Source of the DNA: a virus
Lineage: Duplodnaviria > Heunggongvirae > Uroviricota > Caudoviricetes
DNA length: 6,554 nucleotides
Strand: one strand, 5' to 3'
IMG/VR virus record: IMGVR_UViG_2531839585_000015
The position numbers and the translations under genes were made by a program. The notes below the pieces were generated by a model. The model saw only the letters and a program-made list of their open reading frames with translations. It was not told the DNA's origin and searched no databases. This document shows positions 2 through 6,554 of the stretch, one piece after another (positions within the stretch are counted from its first letter, which is position 1; every line of letters starts with the position of its first letter).

Positions 2-1714
2 AAGCTGCCGACGCTGCGCCAGCGCCTGTTCCGCTGCGTGAGTATCCGTGAGAACGACGACGGCACGTATGCCATCACCGCCGTGCAGCATGTACCGGAA
101 AAAGAAGCCATCGTGGATAACGGGGCGCACTTTGACGGCGACCAGAGCGGCACGGTGAATGGTGTCACGCCGCCAGCGGTGCAGCATCTGACCGCAGAAG
201 TCACCGCAGACAGCGGGGAATACCAGGTGCTGGCCCGCTGGGACACGCCGAAGGTGGTGAAGGGCGTGAGCTTCCTGCTTCGCCTGACCGTGGCAGCGGA
301 TGACGGCAGTGAGCGGCTGGTCAGCACAGCCCGGACGGCGGAAACCACATACCGCTTCACACAACTGGCGCTGGGGAACTACAGGCTGACAGTCCGGGCA
401 GTAAATGCGTGGGGGCAGCAGGGCGATCCGGCATCGGTATCGTTCCGGATTGCCGCACCGGCAGCGCCGTCGCAGATTGAGCTGACACCGGGGTATTTTC
501 AGATAACCGCCACGCCGCATCTTGCGGTTTATGATCCGACGGTACAGTTTGAGTTCTGGTTCTCGGAAAAGCGGATTGCGGATATCAGGCAGGTTGAAAC
601 CACAGCCCGCTACCTTGGCACGGGGCTGTACTGGATAGCCGCCAGTATCAATATCAAACCGGGCCATGATTATTACTTTTATATCCGCAGTGTGAACACC
701 GTTGGCAAATCGGCATTCGTGGAGGCCGTCGGTCGGGCGAGCGATGATGCGGAAGGTTACCTGGATTTTTTCAAAGGCAAGATAACCGAATCCCATCTCG
801 GCAAGGAGCTGCTGGAAAAAGTCGAGCTGACGGAGGATAACGCCAGCAGACTGGAGGAGTTTTCGAAAGAGTGGAAGGACGCCAACGATAAGTGGAATGC
901 CATGTGGGCTGTCAAAATTGAGCAGACCAAAGACGGCAAACATTATGTCGCGGGTATTGGCCTCAGCATGGAGGACACGGAAGAAGGCAAGCTGAGCCAG
1001 TTCCTGGTTGCCGCTAACCGTATCGCGTTTATTGATCCGTCTAATGGCAACACAAGACCAATGTTTGTTGGTCAGGGCGATCAGATATTCATGAACGACG
1101 TGTTCCTGAAACGCCTGACGGCTCCGACCATTACCAGCGGCGGTAATCCTCCGGCATTTTCCCTGACACCGGACGGGCGGCTGACGGCGAAAAATGCCGA
1201 TATCAGCGGTAACGTGAATGCGAACTCCGGGACGCTCAACAACGTCACGATTAACGAGAACTGTCGGGTTCTGGGAAAACTGTCCGCCAACCAGATTGAA
1301 GGCGATCTCGTTAAAACAGTGGGCAAAGCTTTCCCCCGGGACTCCCGTGCACCGGAACGGTGGCCATCAGGGACCATCACCGTCAGGGTTTATGACGATC
1401 AGCCGTTTGACCGGCAGATTGTTATTCCGGCGGTGGCATTCAGCGGCGCTAAACATGAGAGGGAGAATAACGATATTTATTCGTCATGCCGCCTGATAGT
1501 ACGGAAAAACGGTGCTGAAATTTATAACCGTACCGCGCTGGATAATACGCTGATTTACAGTGGTGTTATTGATATGCCAGCTGGTCGCGGCCACATGACG
1601 CTGGAGTTTTCGGTGTCATCATGGCTGGTAAATGACTGGTATCCCACAGCAAGTATCAGCGATTTGCTGGTTGTGGTGATGAAGAAAGCCACCGCAGGCA
1701 TCAGTATCAGCTGA
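2..1714 (+). CDS. J: Tail tip / host-specificity protein J, C-terminal ~570 codons; the 5' end lies upstream of the window
   Basis: Frame open from position 2 to TGA at 1712-1714 with no internal stops. The translation ([46 protein letters not shown]...[68 protein letters not shown]...) matches the C-terminal half of phage lambda J as I recall it. The last ~150 residues (from about [13 protein letters not shown]) differ from lambda J. Confidence 0.93.
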
Positions 1715-1733
1715 ATTTTATAACCCATATACG

Positions 1734-1760
1734 GGCGCCAGAAATGGCGCCTTTTTTATT
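1734..1760 (+). terminator. Rho-independent terminator candidate downstream of J
   Basis: Perfect 7-bp stem GGCGCCA (1734-1740) / TGGCGCC (1745-1751) with GAAA tetraloop (1741-1744), followed directly by TTTTTTATT (1752-1760). Begins 20 nt after the J stop codon. Confidence 0.65.
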
Positions 1761-1770
1761 GCAGAAAAGC

Positions 1771-1776
1771 GAGAGG
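1771..1776 (+). promoter_or_regulatory. Shine-Dalgarno sequence for lom
   Basis: GAGAGG lies 5 nt upstream of the ATG at 1782. Confidence 0.5.
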
Positions 1777-1781
1777 TAATT

Positions 1782-2369
1782 ATGCGTAAAGTTTGTGCAG
1801 CCATTTTGTCCGCAGCCATCTGTCTGGCCGTATCCGGTGCGCCTGCATGGGCGTCTGAGCAGCAGGCCACACTGAGCGCAGGGTATCTTCATGCCCGTAC
1901 GAACGCTCCCGGCAGCGATAATCTGAACGGGATTAACGTGAAATACCGTTATGAGTTTACGGACACGCTGGGGCTGATTACGTCATTCAGTTATGCCAAC
2001 GCTGAAGATGAGCAAAAAACGCATACAGCGATACCCGCTGGCATGAGATTCCGTGCGTAACCGCTGGTTCAGCGTGATGGCGGGCCGTCTGTCGCGTGAA
2101 TGAATGGTTCAGCGCGTATGCGATGGCGGGTGTGGCTTACAGCCGTGTGTCGACTTTCTCCGGGGATTATCTCGTACGACAAAGGGGAAAAGCACGATGT
2201 GCTGACCGGAAGTGATGACGGTCGCCACAGCAACACGTCTCTGGCGTGGGGGGCTGGCGTGCAGTTTAACCCGACCGAATCCGTGGCCATTGATATTGCT
2301 TATGAAGGCTCCGGCAGTGGTGACTGGCGCACTGACGGTTTCATCGTGGGTGTTGGTTATAAATTCTGA
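1782..2369 (+). pseudogene. lom: lom (Lom/Ail/PagC-family 8-strand beta-barrel outer-membrane protein), frame-disrupted as sequenced
   Basis: ATG at 1782 opens a typical signal peptide (MRKVCAAILSAAICLAVSGAPAWA) and Lom-like N-terminus (GINVKYRYEFTD...). Frame 0 hits TAA at 2058-2060. The Lom-like reading continues in another frame (VRNRWFSVMAG, 2053-2085), then another (NEWFSAYAMAGVAYSRVSTFSGDYL, 2099-2172), and returns to frame 0 for the C-terminus (HDVLTGSDDGRHSNTSLAWGAGVQFNPTESVAIDIAYEGSGSGDWRTDGFIVGVGYKF, stop TGA 2367-2369). Total span is 196 codons, the size of an intact Lom. At least 3-4 single-base frame changes fall between about 2020 and 2180. Confidence 0.85.
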
Positions 2370-2396
2370 TTAGCCAGGTAACACAGTGTTATGACA

Positions 2397-2422
2397 GCCC
2401 GCCGGTTCAGGCGGGCTTTTTT
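2397..2422 (+). terminator. Rho-independent terminator candidate between lom and stf
   Basis: Stem GCCCGCC (2397-2403) / GGCGGGC (2410-2416) with 6-nt loop, followed by TTTTTT (2417-2422). Begins 28 nt after the lom stop codon. Confidence 0.65.
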
Positions 2423-2433
2423 GTGGGGTGAAT

Positions 2434-3247
2434 ATGGCAGTAAAGATTTCAGGTGTACTGAAAGACGGCACAGGAAAACCGGTACAGAACTGCACAATCC
2501 AGCTGAAAGCAAAACGTAACAGCACCACGGTGGTGGTGAACACGCTGGCCTCAGAAAATCCGGATGAAGCCGGGCGTTACAGCATGGACGTTGAGTACGG
2601 CAGTACAGCGTTATTCTGTTGGTGGAGGTTCCCGCCGTCACATGCCGGGACCATCACGTGTATGAAGATTCACCGGTACGCTGAATGATTTTCTCGGTGC
2701 CATGACGGAGGATGATGCCGTCCGAGGCACTGCGCCGTTTGACTGATGGTGGAAGAGGTGGCGCGTAACGCGTCCGGGTGGCACAGAACACGGCAGCCGC
2801 AAGAAGTCAGCCAGGATGCCGCACATCGCCGTGAGGCGGCAACCCATGCGACTGATGCTCAGGCTCAGCACGGCAGCCAGCACTCAGCCGGCAGGCCGCG
2901 CGTCGGCTCAGTCAGCTCTTCCAGCGCAGGAACGGCATCAACAAAGCCTGAAGCATCAAAAGTGCTGCGCTGCAGAGTCCTCAAAAAGCGCGGCGCTACC
3001 AGTGCCGTGCGGCGAAAACGTCAGAAACGAATGCGCAGCGTCACAAAATCGCAGCCACTTCTGCATCCCCGCGACCACGAAGCGTCAGAAGCGCCACCTC
3101 AGCCCGGGATGCGGCGGCCTCAAAAGAGGCAGCGAAATCATCAGAAACGAACGCATCATCAAGCGCCAGTAGTGCCGCTTCCTCGGCAACGGCGGCAGGA
3201 ATTCCGCGAAGGCGGCAAAAACGTCGAGACAACGCCAGGTCTTCTGA
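2434..3247 (+). pseudogene. stf: Side tail fibre gene stf, 5' portion (tail-attachment domain and start of the Ala/Ser/Thr-rich region), multiply frame-disrupted as sequenced
   Basis: ATG at 2434 is preceded by GGGGTG. MAVKISGVLKDGTGKPVQNCTIQLKAKRNSTTVVVNTLASENPDEAGRYSMDVEYG is the lambda Stf / Rac StfR N-terminus as I recall it. After about 2600 the Stf-like reading hops between frames: PPSHAGTIT in frame 1 (2626-2658), YEDSP in frame 0 (2661-2675), TLNDFLGAMTEDDA in frame 2 (2678-2719), MVEEVARNAS in frame 1 (2746-2775), [36 protein letters not shown] in frame 0 (about 3087-3197). The first stop in the start frame is TGA at 2686-2688. Each frame alternates between Ala/Ser/Thr-rich (expected) and Arg/Gln/Pro/His-rich (shifted) stretches. 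Confidence 0.8.
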
Positions 3248-3760
3248 AACGGCAGCGGGACAGAGCGCCTCGCTGCGGCAGGCTCAAAAACAGCGGCTGC
3301 GTCGTCTGCCAGTGCCGCGTCAACAAGTGCCGGGCAGGCCTCAGCCAGTGCCACCGCCGCCGGAAAATCGGCAGAAAGTGCCGCATCGTCTGCTTCAACA
3401 GCCACAACGAAGGCTGGCGAAGCCACTGAACAGGCCAGCGCAGCAGCGAGGTCTGCTTCCGCAGCGAAGACATCCGAAACGAACGCGAAAGCGTCGGAAA
3501 CCAGCGCAGAATCCTCAAAAACGGCTGCCGCATCGTCAGCCAGTTCGGCGGCGTCATCGGCATCATCGGCGTCTGCTTCAAAAGATGAGGCGACCATACA
3601 GGCGTCAGCAGCGAAGGGCAGCGCCACGACGGCATCCACGAAGGCGACAGAGGCTGCTGGTAGTGCGACGGCAGCAGCTCAGAGCAAAAGTACGGCGGAA
3701 TCTGCAGCAACGCGCGCTGAGACAGCGGCAAAACGGGCAGAGGATATTGCATCCGCCGTG
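2850..3760 (+). repeat. Low-complexity, internally repetitive GC-rich segment encoding the Ala/Ser/Thr/Glu/Lys-rich linker of Stf
   Basis: Recurrent imperfect nucleotide motifs encoding (A)KTSETNA / SSETNA, for example 3015-3034, 3138-3158, 3471-3489. Dominated by GCN, TCN and ACN codons. It produces long spurious ORFs in the alternate + frame and on the - strand. Confidence 0.6.
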
Positions 3761-5791
3761 GCGCTTGAGGATGCGAGCACGACGAAAAAGGGGATAGTAC
3801 AGCTCAGTAGTGCGACTAACAGCACGTCTGAAACGCTGGCGGCAACGCCAAAGGCAGTAAAATCAGCCTATGACAATGCAGAGAAACGTCTGCAGAAAGA
3901 CCAGAACGGCGCTGATATACCCGATAAGGGACGCTTCCTGAACAACATTAACGCGGTCAGTAAAACAGACTTTGCTGATAAGCGTGGTATGCGTTATGTG
4001 CGGGTTAACGCTCCTGCAGGTGCAACATCTGGAAAATATTACCCTGTTGTTGTTATGCGTTCTGCTGGCTCAGTAAGCGAACTGGCATCAAGGGTCATTA
4101 TCACCACGGCAACGCGAACCGCAGGCGATCCGATGAATAACTGCGAGTTTAACGGATTTGTTATGCCTGGTGGCTGGACTGACAGGGGGCGTTATGCTTA
4201 TGGAATGTTCTGGCAATATCAAAACAATGAACGAGCCATCCACTCAATAATGATGAGTAATAAGGGCGATGATTTGCGCTCTGTGTTCTATGTTGATGGC
4301 GCTGCTTTCCCTGTTTTTGCGTTTATCGAAGATGGCCTGTCAATATCCGCACCTGGTGCTGATCTCGTTGTTAATGATACGACCTATAAGTTTGGGGCAA
4401 CAAATCCGGCGACTGAATGTATCGCGGCGGACGTTATCCTTGATTTTAAGAGTGGGCGTGGTTTTTATGAGTCTCATTCGTTAATCGTTAACGATAACTT
4501 GTCGTGCAAAAAACTTTTTGCCACAGACGAAATTGTAGCGCGTGGTGGTAATCAGATTCGAATGATAGGTGGGGAGTATGGGGCATTATGGCGTAATGAT
4601 GGCGCTAAAACTTACCTGCTGCTTACCAATCAAGGTGATGTTTATGGTGGCTGGAATACATTAAGACCGTTTGCTATTGATAACGCAACCGGCGAACTGG
4701 TTATTGGAACCAAACTGTCCGCAAGTCTGAACGGTAATGCATTAACAGCAACAAAGCTGCAAACGCCAAGACGGGTTTCTGGTGTTGAGTTTGATGGTTC
4801 CAAAGATATTACTTTAACCGCCGCGCATGTGGCTGCTTTTGCCAGAAGGGCAACGGATACATATGCCGATGCGGATGGTGGCGTTCCCTGGAATGCCGAA
4901 TCAGGCGCTTATAATGTCACCCGCTCTGGCGACAGCTATATTCTGGTTAACTTCTATACCGGAGTCGGAAGTTGCCGGACCTTGCAGATGAAGGCGCATT
5001 ACAGAAATGGTGGTCTGTTCTACCGTTCTTCAAGAGACGGTTATGGTTTTGAGGAAGACTGGGCAGAAGTTTATACCTCGAAAAATCTTCCACCAGAAAG
5101 CTACCCAGTCGGCGCACCAATCCCGTGGCCATCAGATACCGTTCCGTCTGGTTATGCCCTGATGCAGGGGCAGACTTTTGACAAATCTGCCTACCCGAAA
5201 CTTGCAGCCGCTTATCCGTCAGGCGTGATCCCTGATATGCGTGGCTGGACGATTAAGGGCAAGCCCGCCAGTGGTCGTGCCGTATTGTCTCAGGAACAGG
5301 ACGGCATAAAATCGCATACCCACAGCGCCAGCGCATCCAGTACTGATTTGGGGACGAAAACCACATCGTCGTTTGATTACGGCACTAAATCCACGAATAA
5401 CACTGGTGCGCATACCCATAGTTTAAGTGGCAGCACGAATGCAGCTGGTAATCACAGCCATAGAGATGGCCGTCGATTTAACCCCAGTGTTTTTAAAGAT
5501 ACTTATCAATATGGTTATACAAGCTCAGGTCAAAATACCTGGGGTGTACAAGGCTCAGTAGGTATGTCTACGGGGGCGTTAGCTAATACCAGTACAGATG
5601 GTAACCATAGCCACTCACTGTCCGGCACAGCAGCATCTGCAGGTGCACACGCACATACTGTCGGTATTGGTGCACACACGCACTCCGTTGCGATTGGTTC
5701 ACATGGACACACCATCACCGTTAACGCTGCTGGTAACGCGGAAAACACCGTCAAAAACATCGCATTTAACTATATTGTGAGGCTTGCATAA
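3248..5791 (+). CDS. stf: Side tail fibre protein Stf, uninterrupted 3' portion (847 codons: rest of the Ala/Ser/Thr-rich linker, a central shaft module, and a His-rich lambda-type distal tip)
   Basis: Frame 2 is open from 3248 to TAA at 5789-5791. The ORF track starts it at GTG 3758 only because no start codon occurs earlier in this Ala/Ser/Thr-rich stretch. The C-terminus ([76 protein letters not shown]...[31 protein letters not shown]) matches the lambda Stf / T4 gp37-type tip as I recall it. The whole ORF resembles E. coli Rac StfR from memory; this is not verified by search. Confidence 0.9.
5777..5782 (+). promoter_or_regulatory. Shine-Dalgarno sequence for tfa, inside the 3' end of stf
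   Basis: GTGAGG lies 8 nt upstream of the tfa ATG at 5791-5793. The stf stop and tfa start overlap as TAATG. Confidence 0.5.
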
Positions 5792-6432
5792 TGGCATTCA
5801 GAATGAGTGAACAACCACGGACCATAAAAATTTATAATCTGCTGGCCGGAACTAATGAATTTATTGGTGAAGGTGACGCATATATTCCGCCTCATACAGG
5901 TCTGCCAGCAAACAGTACCGATATTGCACCGCCAGATATTCCGGCTGGCTTCGTGGCTGTTTTCAACAGTGATGAGGCATCGTGGCATCTCGTTGAAGAC
6001 CATCGGGGAAAAACGGTTTATGACGTGGCTTCCGGCGACGCGTTATTTATTTCTGAACTTGGCTCGTTACCGGAAAATGTCACCTGGTTATCGCCGGAAG
6101 GGGAATATCAGAAGTGGAACGGCACAGCCTGGGTGAAGGATACGGAAGCAGAAAAACTGTTCCGGATCCGGGAGGCGGAAGAAACAAAAAACAGCCTGAT
6201 GCAGGTAGCCAGTGAGCATATAGCGCCACTTCAGGATGCTGTAGATCTGGAGATCGCAACGGAGGAAGAAACCTCATTGCTGGAAGCCTGGAAAAAATAT
6301 CGGGTGTTGCTGAACCGTGTTAATACAACAACTGCACCGGATATTGAATGGCCAACAGTACCCATACACAATGTAAGCGAAAAAGAAAAACCGCAGACAC
6401 GACGTATGCAGGACGTGCTGCGGTTTGGCTAG
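5791..6432 (+). CDS. tfa: Tail fibre assembly protein Tfa (chaperone for Stf), 213 aa
   Basis: Intact ORF from ATG 5791 to TAG 6430-6432. The translation [91 protein letters not shown]... is nearly identical over most of its length to lambda Tfa as I recall it, but with a different, longer C-terminal end. Position directly after stf is the canonical arrangement. Confidence 0.95.
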
Positions 6433-6554
6433 TAAACTTTTGATAGTGCGAGTATTGAATGATTTCCAGCCCATTACTCATTTTACGCTTTTCACGCGCA
6501 AGAGAAATTGAACTTTATTCCTCTGTCACCACATGACGGGGATTAACATTCTGG

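What the first reader, a model, noticed from the sequence alone, without database searches (positions are those of the whole stretch)
3863..5110. Mosaic stf: lambda-type N-terminus and tip flank a distinct, AT-richer central module
Up to ...LAATPKAVK (about 3862) and again from GAPIPWPSD (about 5111) the protein follows the lambda Stf pattern as I recall it. The roughly 415 codons between ([28 protein letters not shown]...[29 protein letters not shown]) do not, and the nucleotide composition is visibly more AT-rich than the flanking Ala/Ser-rich and tip regions. This fits module exchange by recombination in tail fibre genes. The central module probably contributes shaft or receptor-proximal structure and may alter host range.
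Basis: partly seen in the sequence, partly recalled or inferred. Interest (0 to 1): 0.4.

Follow-up and report, generated by a model that had tools for sequence, protein, structure and literature searches.

The report
Common Rac-type tail fibre cassette
The "foreign" middle part of this phage side tail fibre gene is real, but it is the well-known StfR-type cassette found in E. coli K-12's Rac prophage and about a quarter of complete E. coli genomes, so it is an ordinary example of tail-fibre gene shuffling.

Summary
DNA homology to lambda stf stops at 3861 and resumes at 5111. The 416 codons between have no similarity to lambda's 147-residue central segment. The module is not new. It is 99.2% identical (DNA) to the centre of stfR in the K-12 Rac prophage, 100% identical in other strains and isolated lambdoid phages, and present in 1307 of 5426 complete E. 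coli genomes, more than lambda's own cassette (584). It is itself composite: a Mu-S-like motif, a predicted beta-sandwich domain with no solved homologue, a T4 gp34-type trimerisation domain and a Mu-S'-like distal domain. A T4 gp37-type collar/needle tip follows. At least three alternative cassettes sit between the same two conserved motifs, and a separate variable patch in the tip assorts independently of them, so recombination is well supported. The AT-richness is significant only against the Ala/Ser-rich N-terminal part, mostly through amino-acid composition, and not against the tip or tfa. A shaft role is likely; an effect on host range is untested. Separately, lom and the stf N-terminal third carry 56 deleted bases that coincide with sites polymorphic among relatives. 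This is most likely a collapsed-repeat assembly artefact. Already known; low interest.

The parts
38..1714 (+). 3' part of gene J (tail tip host-specificity protein); the gene continues upstream of the window
   Evidence: 558-aa ORF. Aligns with annotated J genes of PhiR34_1, 2H10, lambda and PEC301.
1782..2369 (+). lom (Ail/Lom outer-membrane protein), split into two frames by deleted bases at 2025-2192
   Evidence: ORFs 1782-2060 and 2100-2369. Intact 199-aa Lom in relatives. Deletions listed.
2434..5791 (+). stf side tail fibre gene, StfR (Rac) type. Frameshifted many times in 2601-3273; uninterrupted frame from about 3245 to the stop at 5791
   Evidence: Three-frame translation. 96.6% DNA identity to K-12 stfR over 2182-5431 with 34 gaps. 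Intact 1132-1134-aa versions in L001, L005, L006, L011, L013.
3776..3898 (+). Phage_fiber_2 repeat ([25 protein letters not shown]...), the conserved motif that contains the upstream junction
   Evidence: Pfam PF03406, 75 bits, ORF residues 7-47. Shared with Mu S residues 109-171. Duplicated in PhiR26_1 and SPF_0923.
3863..5110 (+). The central module of the finding (416 codons), StfR-type cassette
   Evidence: No homology to lambda between 3861 and 5111. 99.2% nt identity to K-12 stfR and 100% to strain 120899; at least 80% coverage in 1307/5426 genomes.
3866..3955 (+). Mu-S-like 'KDQNGADIP' motif (module residues 2-31); still shared with PhiR26-type fibres
   Evidence: PDB sequence hits 5yvq/8ju3 residues 143-172. 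DNA homology to PhiR26_1/PhiR29_1/SPF_0923 runs to 3921.
3980..4477 (+). Predicted all-beta (beta-sandwich/jelly-roll-like) globular sub-domain, module residues about 40-205; no Pfam family and no solved homologue
4376..4723 (+). T4 gp34-type C-terminal trimerisation domain (also present in Mu S)
   Evidence: Pfam PF21446 Gp34_trimer, 99.9 bits (cut-off 27), module 172-272. PDB 4uxe/5nxf/9x3r E about 6e-12, module 216-287. Mu S 5yvq residues 268-336.
4826..5092 (+). Mu S' (gp52)-like distal domain / Pfam gp37_C
   Evidence: PDB 8ju3 residues 321-409, domain E=8e-21. Pfam PF12604, 25 bits (cut-off 22.5).
5111..5254 (+). Phage tail collar domain, the conserved motif (GAPIPWPSD...) at the downstream junction
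   Evidence: Pfam PF07484, 46.7 bits, ORF residues 452-499. Homology to lambda resumes at 5111.
5096..5788 (+). T4 gp37-type tip (collar, His-x-His needle, head)
   Evidence: phmmer vs PDB 2xgf E=3.7e-85, ORF residues 447-677. 71% identity to lambda Stf 529-774.
5431..5605 (+). Variable patch inside the tip, between His-x-His repeats; a second mosaic unit that assorts independently and is the likely receptor-specificity region
   Evidence: DNA homology to Rac and 2H10 breaks at 5431-5605 and to lambda at 5390-5604. Four patch types in the alignment, combined freely with cassette types.
5791..6432 (+). tfa tail fibre assembly chaperone; 213 aa here against 191-194 in relatives because the reading frame changes near 6359
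   Evidence: Pfam Caudo_TAP, 148 bits. PHROG 105. Comparison of C-terminal ends. One inserted base at 6359 relative to PEC301.

Best explanation
The window carries the J-lom-stf-tfa tail end of a lambdoid E. coli prophage whose side tail fibre is of the StfR (Rac prophage) type. The fibre is a chain of interchangeable blocks:
- a lambda-like N-terminal attachment domain and an Ala/Ser-rich rod;
- a conserved Phage_fiber_2 repeat;
- the 416-residue central cassette;
- a conserved collar;
- a T4 gp37-type His-x-His needle with a variable head patch;
- the Tfa chaperone.

The central cassette is itself built from fibre domains shared with Mu S/S' and T4 gp34, plus one beta-sandwich domain of unknown structure. 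It lengthens the trimeric shaft by about 270 residues per chain relative to lambda.

Shown: the boundaries, the identity with StfR, the alternative cassettes between the same motifs, and independent assortment of the tip patch.

Inferred: cassettes are swapped by homologous recombination (phage Red-beta/RecT-type and RecA) within the conserved flanking motifs; the cassette acts mainly as shaft or spacer; receptor specificity lies mainly in the gp37-type tip patch.
For: - Exact junctions against lambda and no collinearity with lambda's centre.
- 99.2-100% identity to K-12 Rac stfR, strain 120899 and phages PhiR34_1, Chlobot, Kati, 2H10 and mEp332.
- Cassette counts in 5426 complete genomes: 1307 StfR-type, 800 PhiR26-type, 584 lambda-type.
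- Domain matches: Gp34_trimer 99.9 bits, gp37_C, Phage_fiber_2, Collar. PDB matches: Mu S/S', T4 gp34, and T4 gp37 at E=3.7e-85.
- The alignment shows three cassette types between identical motifs and all four cassette x tip-patch combinations.
- The module has 0-1 mismatches per 200 nt against PEC301, while the flanks have up to 11-14.
- Experimental lambda x Rac recombination across 88-95% identical stf/tfa DNA at about 2e-6, mainly Red-beta dependent (PMC3945230).
- An engineered lambda Stf(1-393)-P2 H chimera is functional with a junction 8 residues from the natural one (PMC11338833).
- The gp37/lambda tip is the OmpC-binding part (PMC7291167).
Against: - No experiment or confident trimer model shows what the cassette does. 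The full-module AF2 monomer failed (pLDDT 38.7).
- The beta-sandwich sub-domain could bind a ligand.
- The direction and donor of the original exchange are unknown.
- The recombination assay in the literature covered the tip/tfa homology, not the central cassette itself.
- In this window the gene is not intact, so this copy as written could not make a full fibre unless the deletions are artefacts.
Confidence: 0.85

Rival explanations
1. The cassette is a host-range module. Its beta-sandwich sub-domain (module residues about 40-205) is a lateral, possibly glycan-binding, adhesin domain, so StfR-type fibres have a second specificity in addition to the gp37-type tip.
For: The sub-domain folds as a separate globular all-beta unit (pTM 0.69). 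Its weak fold neighbours include carbohydrate-binding modules, collagen-binding domains and adhesin domains. Related segments occur in fibres of very different phages, including rV5-like, Campylobacter and Aeromonas T4-like phages.
Confidence: 0.15
2. The cassette was exchanged by site-specific inversion or recombination catalysed by a fibre-associated invertase (Gin/Cin/Pin type), not by homologous recombination.
For: Relatives carry pinR/pinQ invertase genes just downstream of tfa. PMC3945230 notes that ancient fibre gene transfer is thought to be driven by such invertases.
Against: The window has no invertase gene, and no inverted repeats of 18 nt or more in 2400-6554. Junctions lie inside long conserved coding motifs with graded, partner-dependent breakpoints, the signature of homologous exchange. 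Known invertible segments swap the C-terminal end plus tfa, not an internal block.
Confidence: 0.07
3. The mosaic is an assembly chimera. The contig joins pieces of different prophages across repeats, so the lambda-like flanks and the module are not physically linked.
For: The same contig shows signs of collapsed-repeat consensus in 1715-3273. Lambdoid tail regions are multi-copy, with a median of 3 places per genome.
Against: The identical arrangement (N part, module, tip, tfa) is present in complete genomes and in isolated, plaque-forming phages, with the 677 C-terminal residues 99.6-100% identical. 860 genomes cover at least 80% of the whole window in one place.
Confidence: 0.02

Closest known systems
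StfR, side tail fibre homologue of the Rac prophage of E. coli K-12 (gene stfR, 1120 aa)
   Same: Same gene order (lom-stf-tfa). Same N-terminal part, central cassette (99.2% nt) and collar/needle. 92% protein identity over the last 677 residues.
   Different: The tip patch 5431-5605 is of another type. Rac has pinR downstream and this window does not. In this window the N-terminal third is frameshifted.
Stf of Ur-lambda (774 aa)
   Same: The N-terminal domain and Ala/Ser-rich rod (85% nt), the Phage_fiber_2 repeat up to ...AATPKAVK (residue 385), the collar from GAPIPWPSD (residue 533), the gp37-type needle and Tfa.
   Different: Lambda residues 386-532 (147 aa) are replaced by an unrelated 416 aa. 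The tip head patch differs, and lambda has an extra FDYGTK repeat.
Mu tail fibre proteins S (gp49, PDB 5YVQ) and S' (gp52, PDB 8JU3)
   Same: The module is collinear with Mu S/S' residues about 109-415: the Phage_fiber_2 repeat, the KD(Q/R)NGADIP motif, the gp34-like domain (268-336) and the distal domain (321-409).
   Different: An extra beta-sandwich domain of about 160 residues is inserted. Mu's own C-terminal tip is absent and replaced by a T4 gp37-type collar and needle.
T4 long tail fibre proteins gp34 (proximal) and gp37 (distal tip, PDB 2XGF)
   Same: A gp34 C-terminal trimerisation domain within the module (PF21446). The tip after 5111 is 2XGF-like at E=3.7e-85 with His-x-His repeats.
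   Different: In T4 these are separate proteins joined at a hinge. Here they are fused in one polypeptide on a siphovirus side fibre, with a Tfa (lambda/Mu-type) chaperone.
PhiR26_1 / PhiR29_1 / Salmonella phage SPF_0923 Stf (alternative cassette type)
   Same: Identical flanks: ORF residues 1-66 and 421-677 are shared at 75-93%. Same gene context.
   Different: A shorter, unrelated centre of about 200 residues. PhiR26_1 and SPF_0923 carry a duplicated Phage_fiber_2 repeat.

Membership tests
StfR-type lambdoid side tail fibre | Central cassette homologous to K-12 Rac StfR | tested here: met
   99.2% nt identity over all 1248 bases to stfR of MG1655. 92% protein identity over 677 aa.
StfR-type lambdoid side tail fibre | Gene context J - lom - stf - tfa | tested here: met
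   ORFs and alignments to annotated phages and prophages.
StfR-type lambdoid side tail fibre | Single intact reading frame of about 1120-1134 codons | tested here: not met
   Multiple frameshifts at 2601-3273. Probably an assembly artefact, so this bears on the record rather than on the family assignment.
Ur-lambda Stf | Collinear with lambda Stf along its whole length, including residues 386-532 | tested here: not met
   No DNA or protein similarity between 3862 and 5110.
T4 gp34 C-terminal trimerisation domain (Pfam PF21446) | Score above the Pfam gathering threshold | tested here: met
   99.9 bits against a cut-off of 27. PDB 4uxe E=5.8e-12.
Pfam gp37_C (PF12604) / Mu S' distal domain | Score above the gathering threshold; similarity to a solved Mu S' chain | tested here: met
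   25.0 bits against a cut-off of 22.5, which is marginal. 8ju3 residues 321-409, domain E=8e-21.
Mu S/S' tail fibre | Mu-type C-terminal receptor-binding tip after the distal domain | tested here: not met
   After module residue 410 the sequence is a collar plus gp37-type needle.
T4 gp37-type receptor-binding tip | Collar, His-x-His needle repeats and C-terminal ...[11 protein letters not shown] | tested here: met
   2xgf E=3.7e-85 over ORF 447-677. Repeats are visible in the alignment. This region lies outside the module.
Invertible tail-fibre segment (Mu G / P1 C / e14 P type) | Adjacent serine invertase and inverted crossover sites bracketing the exchanged segment | tested here: not met
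   No invertase ORF in the window. No inverted repeats of 18 nt or more in 2400-6554. Relatives do have pinR/pinQ downstream.
Trimeric fibre shaft (functional class) | Forms an intertwined homotrimer that extends the fibre | not testable with these tools
   Only monomer prediction was available. The full-module model failed (pLDDT 38.7).

The most novel reading that the evidence does not exclude
The roughly 165-residue beta-sandwich sub-domain in the first half of the cassette (window 3980-4477) has no Pfam family and no solved homologue. It may be an unrecognised lateral adhesin domain that gives StfR-type side fibres a second receptor or glycan specificity, independent of the gp37-type tip.
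Probability: 0.12. Interest if true: 0.35.

Novelty: already known. Interest (0 to 1): 0.1.

Why it matters
It matters little as a discovery. Tail-fibre mosaicism between lambda, Mu, P2 and T-even phages has been textbook knowledge since about 1990, and this cassette sits in a named E. coli K-12 gene.

It has some practical use. The two conserved motifs bracketing the cassette (…AATPKAVK and GAPIPWPSD) are natural, evidently tolerated fusion points for engineering lambda-based particles, and published chimeras use a junction 8 residues away. The cassette counts also show that lambda's own centre is the least common of the three forms.

The side finding is a useful warning: frameshifts in multi-copy prophage regions of draft assemblies can be consensus artefacts rather than pseudogenes.

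Tried and rejected
1. AF2 monomer of the whole module with flanks (14-sequence alignment): mean pLDDT 38.7 and unusable, so no fold search was run on it.
3. phmmer of that sub-domain against PDB at E up to 10: only a chance hit.
4. NCBIfam: no family for the ORF or for an intact relative.
5. Word-indexed homologue search with the sub-domain: only close E. coli fragments, no deeper alignment.
6. Exact 40-mer scan of genome contigs for the source: no hit. The viral-contig scan found a sibling contig but not the source.
7. The idea that the 677-aa truncated product is a real widespread truncation was rejected. Those genomes have intact 1134-codon ORFs and the gene caller truncated them.
8. Biological pseudogenisation as the cause of the deletions was rejected as unlikely. 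There are only deletions and no excess of substitutions, and the deletions are tightly associated with polymorphic columns.
9. The Gifsy-1 Stf paper held nothing on this architecture.
10. Downstream ORFs of the sibling contig have no Pfam family, and no terminator-like site follows tfa.

Full report
**What is in the window.** The 6554 bases hold the right end of a lambdoid tail gene cluster:
- the 3' part of J (38-1714);
- lom (1782-2369);
- stf (2434-5791);
- tfa (5791-6432).

Megablast finds the same arrangement in isolated lambdoid phages (PhiR34_1, Kati, Chlobot, 2H10, mEp332, ev099). It also covers at least 80% of the window in one place in 860 of 5426 complete E. coli genomes.

**Checking the observation.** Against lambda (L003), DNA homology covers window 2242-3301 (85%), 3606-3861 (81%), 5111-5389 (87%) and 5605-6353 (90%). 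There is nothing between 3862 and 5110. The base-by-base alignment shows identity collapsing right after the codons for ...AATPKAVK and returning at GAPIPWPSD.

A reconstructed 774-aa Ur-lambda Stf matches the window's 677-aa ORF only at residues 1-48 and 448-677. tblastn of the 416-aa module against the lambda locus gives nothing better than E=1.2. The segment replaces lambda residues 386-532 (147 aa) with 416 unrelated residues.

**Composition.**

| Segment | GC | GC3 |
|---|---|---|
| In-frame N part (3275-3862) | 0.607 | 0.526 |
| Module | 0.470 | 0.413 |
| Tip | 0.507 | 0.447 |
| tfa | 0.485 | 0.455 |
| J | 0.553 | 0.646 |

The module differs significantly from the N part (z=5.5; GC3 z=2.6). 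However, 72% of that difference is at codon position 2, because the N part is 35% Ala, 22% Ser and 13% Thr. The module does not differ significantly from the tip (z=1.6; GC3 z=0.8) or from tfa (z=0.6).

The real compositional step is therefore at the upstream junction only. Module, tip and tfa form one AT-richer block. A codon-window profile on an intact relative shows the same picture.

**What the module is.** It is 99.2% identical at DNA level to the centre of stfR in the Rac prophage of E. coli K-12 MG1655 and 100% identical in strain 120899. At least 80% of it is present in 1307 of 5426 complete genomes. The whole 677-aa C-terminal product is found letter for letter on many public contigs.

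For comparison, lambda's own central segment is present in 584 genomes and a third cassette (PhiR26 type) in 800. The 'distinct' module is thus the commonest form, and lambda's is the least common of the three.

**Internal anatomy.** Pfam finds Gp34_trimer (99.9 bits, module residues 172-272) and gp37_C (25 bits, residues 337-396). Phage_fiber_2 straddles the upstream junction and Collar starts exactly at the downstream one. Sequence searches of the PDB give:
- Mu S (5YVQ) and S' (8JU3) at module residues 2-31, 220-288 and 322-410, in the same order as in Mu;
- T4 gp34 at residues 216-287;
- the T4 gp37 tip (2XGF), E=3.7e-85, for the region after the module.

5YVQ and 8JU3 are Mu gp49 and gp52 (PMC11821841). 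That paper also describes a natural Mu-like fibre that has acquired a gp37-like tip.

**Evidence for exchange.** An alignment of eight Stf proteins from the ALEDA motif onward shows three unrelated centres between the same two conserved motifs. Against PhiR26_1, PhiR29_1 and Salmonella phage SPF_0923, homology extends further into the module (to 3921) and resumes earlier (5070). The breakpoints are therefore nested and depend on the comparison partner. PhiR26_1 and SPF_0923 have the Phage_fiber_2 repeat in tandem duplicate, a footprint of unequal exchange there.

A second variable patch lies inside the tip (5431-5605, between His-x-His repeats) and comes in at least four types. Types A and C each occur with both the StfR-type and the PhiR26-type centre. 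All four combinations exist, which requires recombination between the two sites.

The module is almost invariant between the window and strain PEC301 (0-1 mismatches per 200 nt), while the flanks reach 11-14.

There is no invertase gene in the window and no inverted repeat of 18 nt or more in 2400-6554. Site-specific inversion is therefore not the local mechanism, although relatives carry pinR/pinQ downstream.

**Literature.**
- De Paepe et al. 2014 (PMC3945230) showed that lambda picks up markers from Rac through the 88-95% identical stf/tfa homology at about 2e-6, mostly through Red-beta. They cite the classical work on fibre gene transfer among lambda, T4, P2 and Mu. Their assay covered the tip/tfa homology, not the central cassette, so applying it to this cassette is an inference.
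- Brödel et al. 2024 (PMC11338833) made a functional lambda Stf(1-393)-P2 H chimera, with a junction 8 residues from the natural one.
- Goulet et al. 2020 (PMC7291167) summarise that the lambda Stf C-terminus resembles the gp37 collar, needle and OmpC-binding head.

**Mechanism.**
- Shown: a modular fibre in which a Mu/T4-like central cassette sits between conserved motifs, and the tip patch varies independently.
- Inferred: exchange by relaxed homologous recombination in those motifs. The cassette serves mainly as additional trimeric shaft, about 270 more residues per chain than in lambda. Specificity resides mainly in the gp37-type head patch with Tfa as chaperone.
- Not excluded (about 0.12-0.15): the beta-sandwich sub-domain is an accessory binding domain.

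**Side finding: the frameshifts.** Relative to every intact relative, the window lacks 42-58 bases in 34-46 gaps, with essentially no insertions. All gaps lie between 1715 and 3273 (the J-lom spacer, lom, and the stf N-terminal third) and none lies in the module or tip. The gapped bins show no excess of substitutions.

An IMG/VR contig (L017) shares 40 of the 56 deleted bases and has about 15 private ones. The deleted positions fall on columns that are polymorphic among 11 intact relatives in 64% of cases, against 15% expected (0 of 5000 random draws). Within ±1 base the figure is 86% against 36%.

The best explanation is a consensus artefact of collapsed multi-copy prophage repeats in draft assemblies, with bases dropped where copies disagree. 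It is unlikely to be gene decay. Raw reads would settle it.

**Verdict.** The feature is an already known, very common StfR-type fibre cassette. Interest is low.

Noticed in passing
window 1715-3273 (J-lom spacer, lom 2025-2192, stf 2601-3273): 56 bases are missing relative to intact relatives: deletions only, mostly single bases, not in homopolymers, and with no excess of substitutions. 40 are shared with IMG/VR contig L017. 64% fall exactly on columns polymorphic among relatives, against 15% expected. Most likely a collapsed-repeat consensus artefact that creates false frameshifts in lom and stf.
   Followed up: yes
window 5431-5605: A second mosaic unit lies inside the gp37-type tip, between His-x-His repeats. 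At least four sequence types occur among relatives, in all combinations with the central cassette types. This is probably the receptor-specificity head region.
   Followed up: partly
window 6355-6432: Tfa is 213 aa instead of 191-194. The frame changes near 6359 (one extra base relative to PEC301), replacing the last few residues with a 20-odd-residue extension. It could be another sequence error or a real variable end, since Tfa C-termini differ among relatives.
   Followed up: partly
window 6385-6488, against L002, L004, L005 and L006: The sequence just downstream of tfa matches a stretch that in Rac, 2H10, strain 120899 and PEC301 lies about 1.7-3.4 kb further on. The block found there in those relatives (the pinR/pinQ invertase and ydfK in Rac and 2H10; other genes, such as a diguanylate cyclase or a Panacea-domain gene, in strain 120899 and PEC301) is absent here.
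   Followed up: partly
window 817-1335 (J C-terminal region): J is also mosaic. Against PhiR34_1 and strain 120899, identity is 93% up to 816, then there is a gap in homology, then only 78% for 901-1335. PEC301 is collinear throughout.
   Followed up: no
L007 (PhiR26_1) and L008 (SPF_0923) stf, just upstream of their central cassette: The Phage_fiber_2 repeat ([33 protein letters not shown]) is present twice in tandem, suggesting unequal recombination at this motif.
   Followed up: partly
L011, L013, L015, L016 and protein hits P0033-P0042, P0091, P0109: Public gene calls often truncate intact 1134-codon stf genes to the same 677-aa product, because a reverse-strand ORF in the Ala/Ser-rich region is called instead. 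Several tail-fibre fragments also carry the wrong name 'short-chain fatty acid transporter'.
   Followed up: partly
window 2746-3797, both strands: Long overlapping ORFs in alternative frames and on the minus strand (for example 3085-3639 minus, 3159-3752 minus, 3312-3797 plus) are by-products of the GC-rich, repetitive Ala/Ser/Thr coding region. That region also contains degenerate 23-26-nt direct repeats encoding ...AAKTSETNA...-like peptides.
   Followed up: partly
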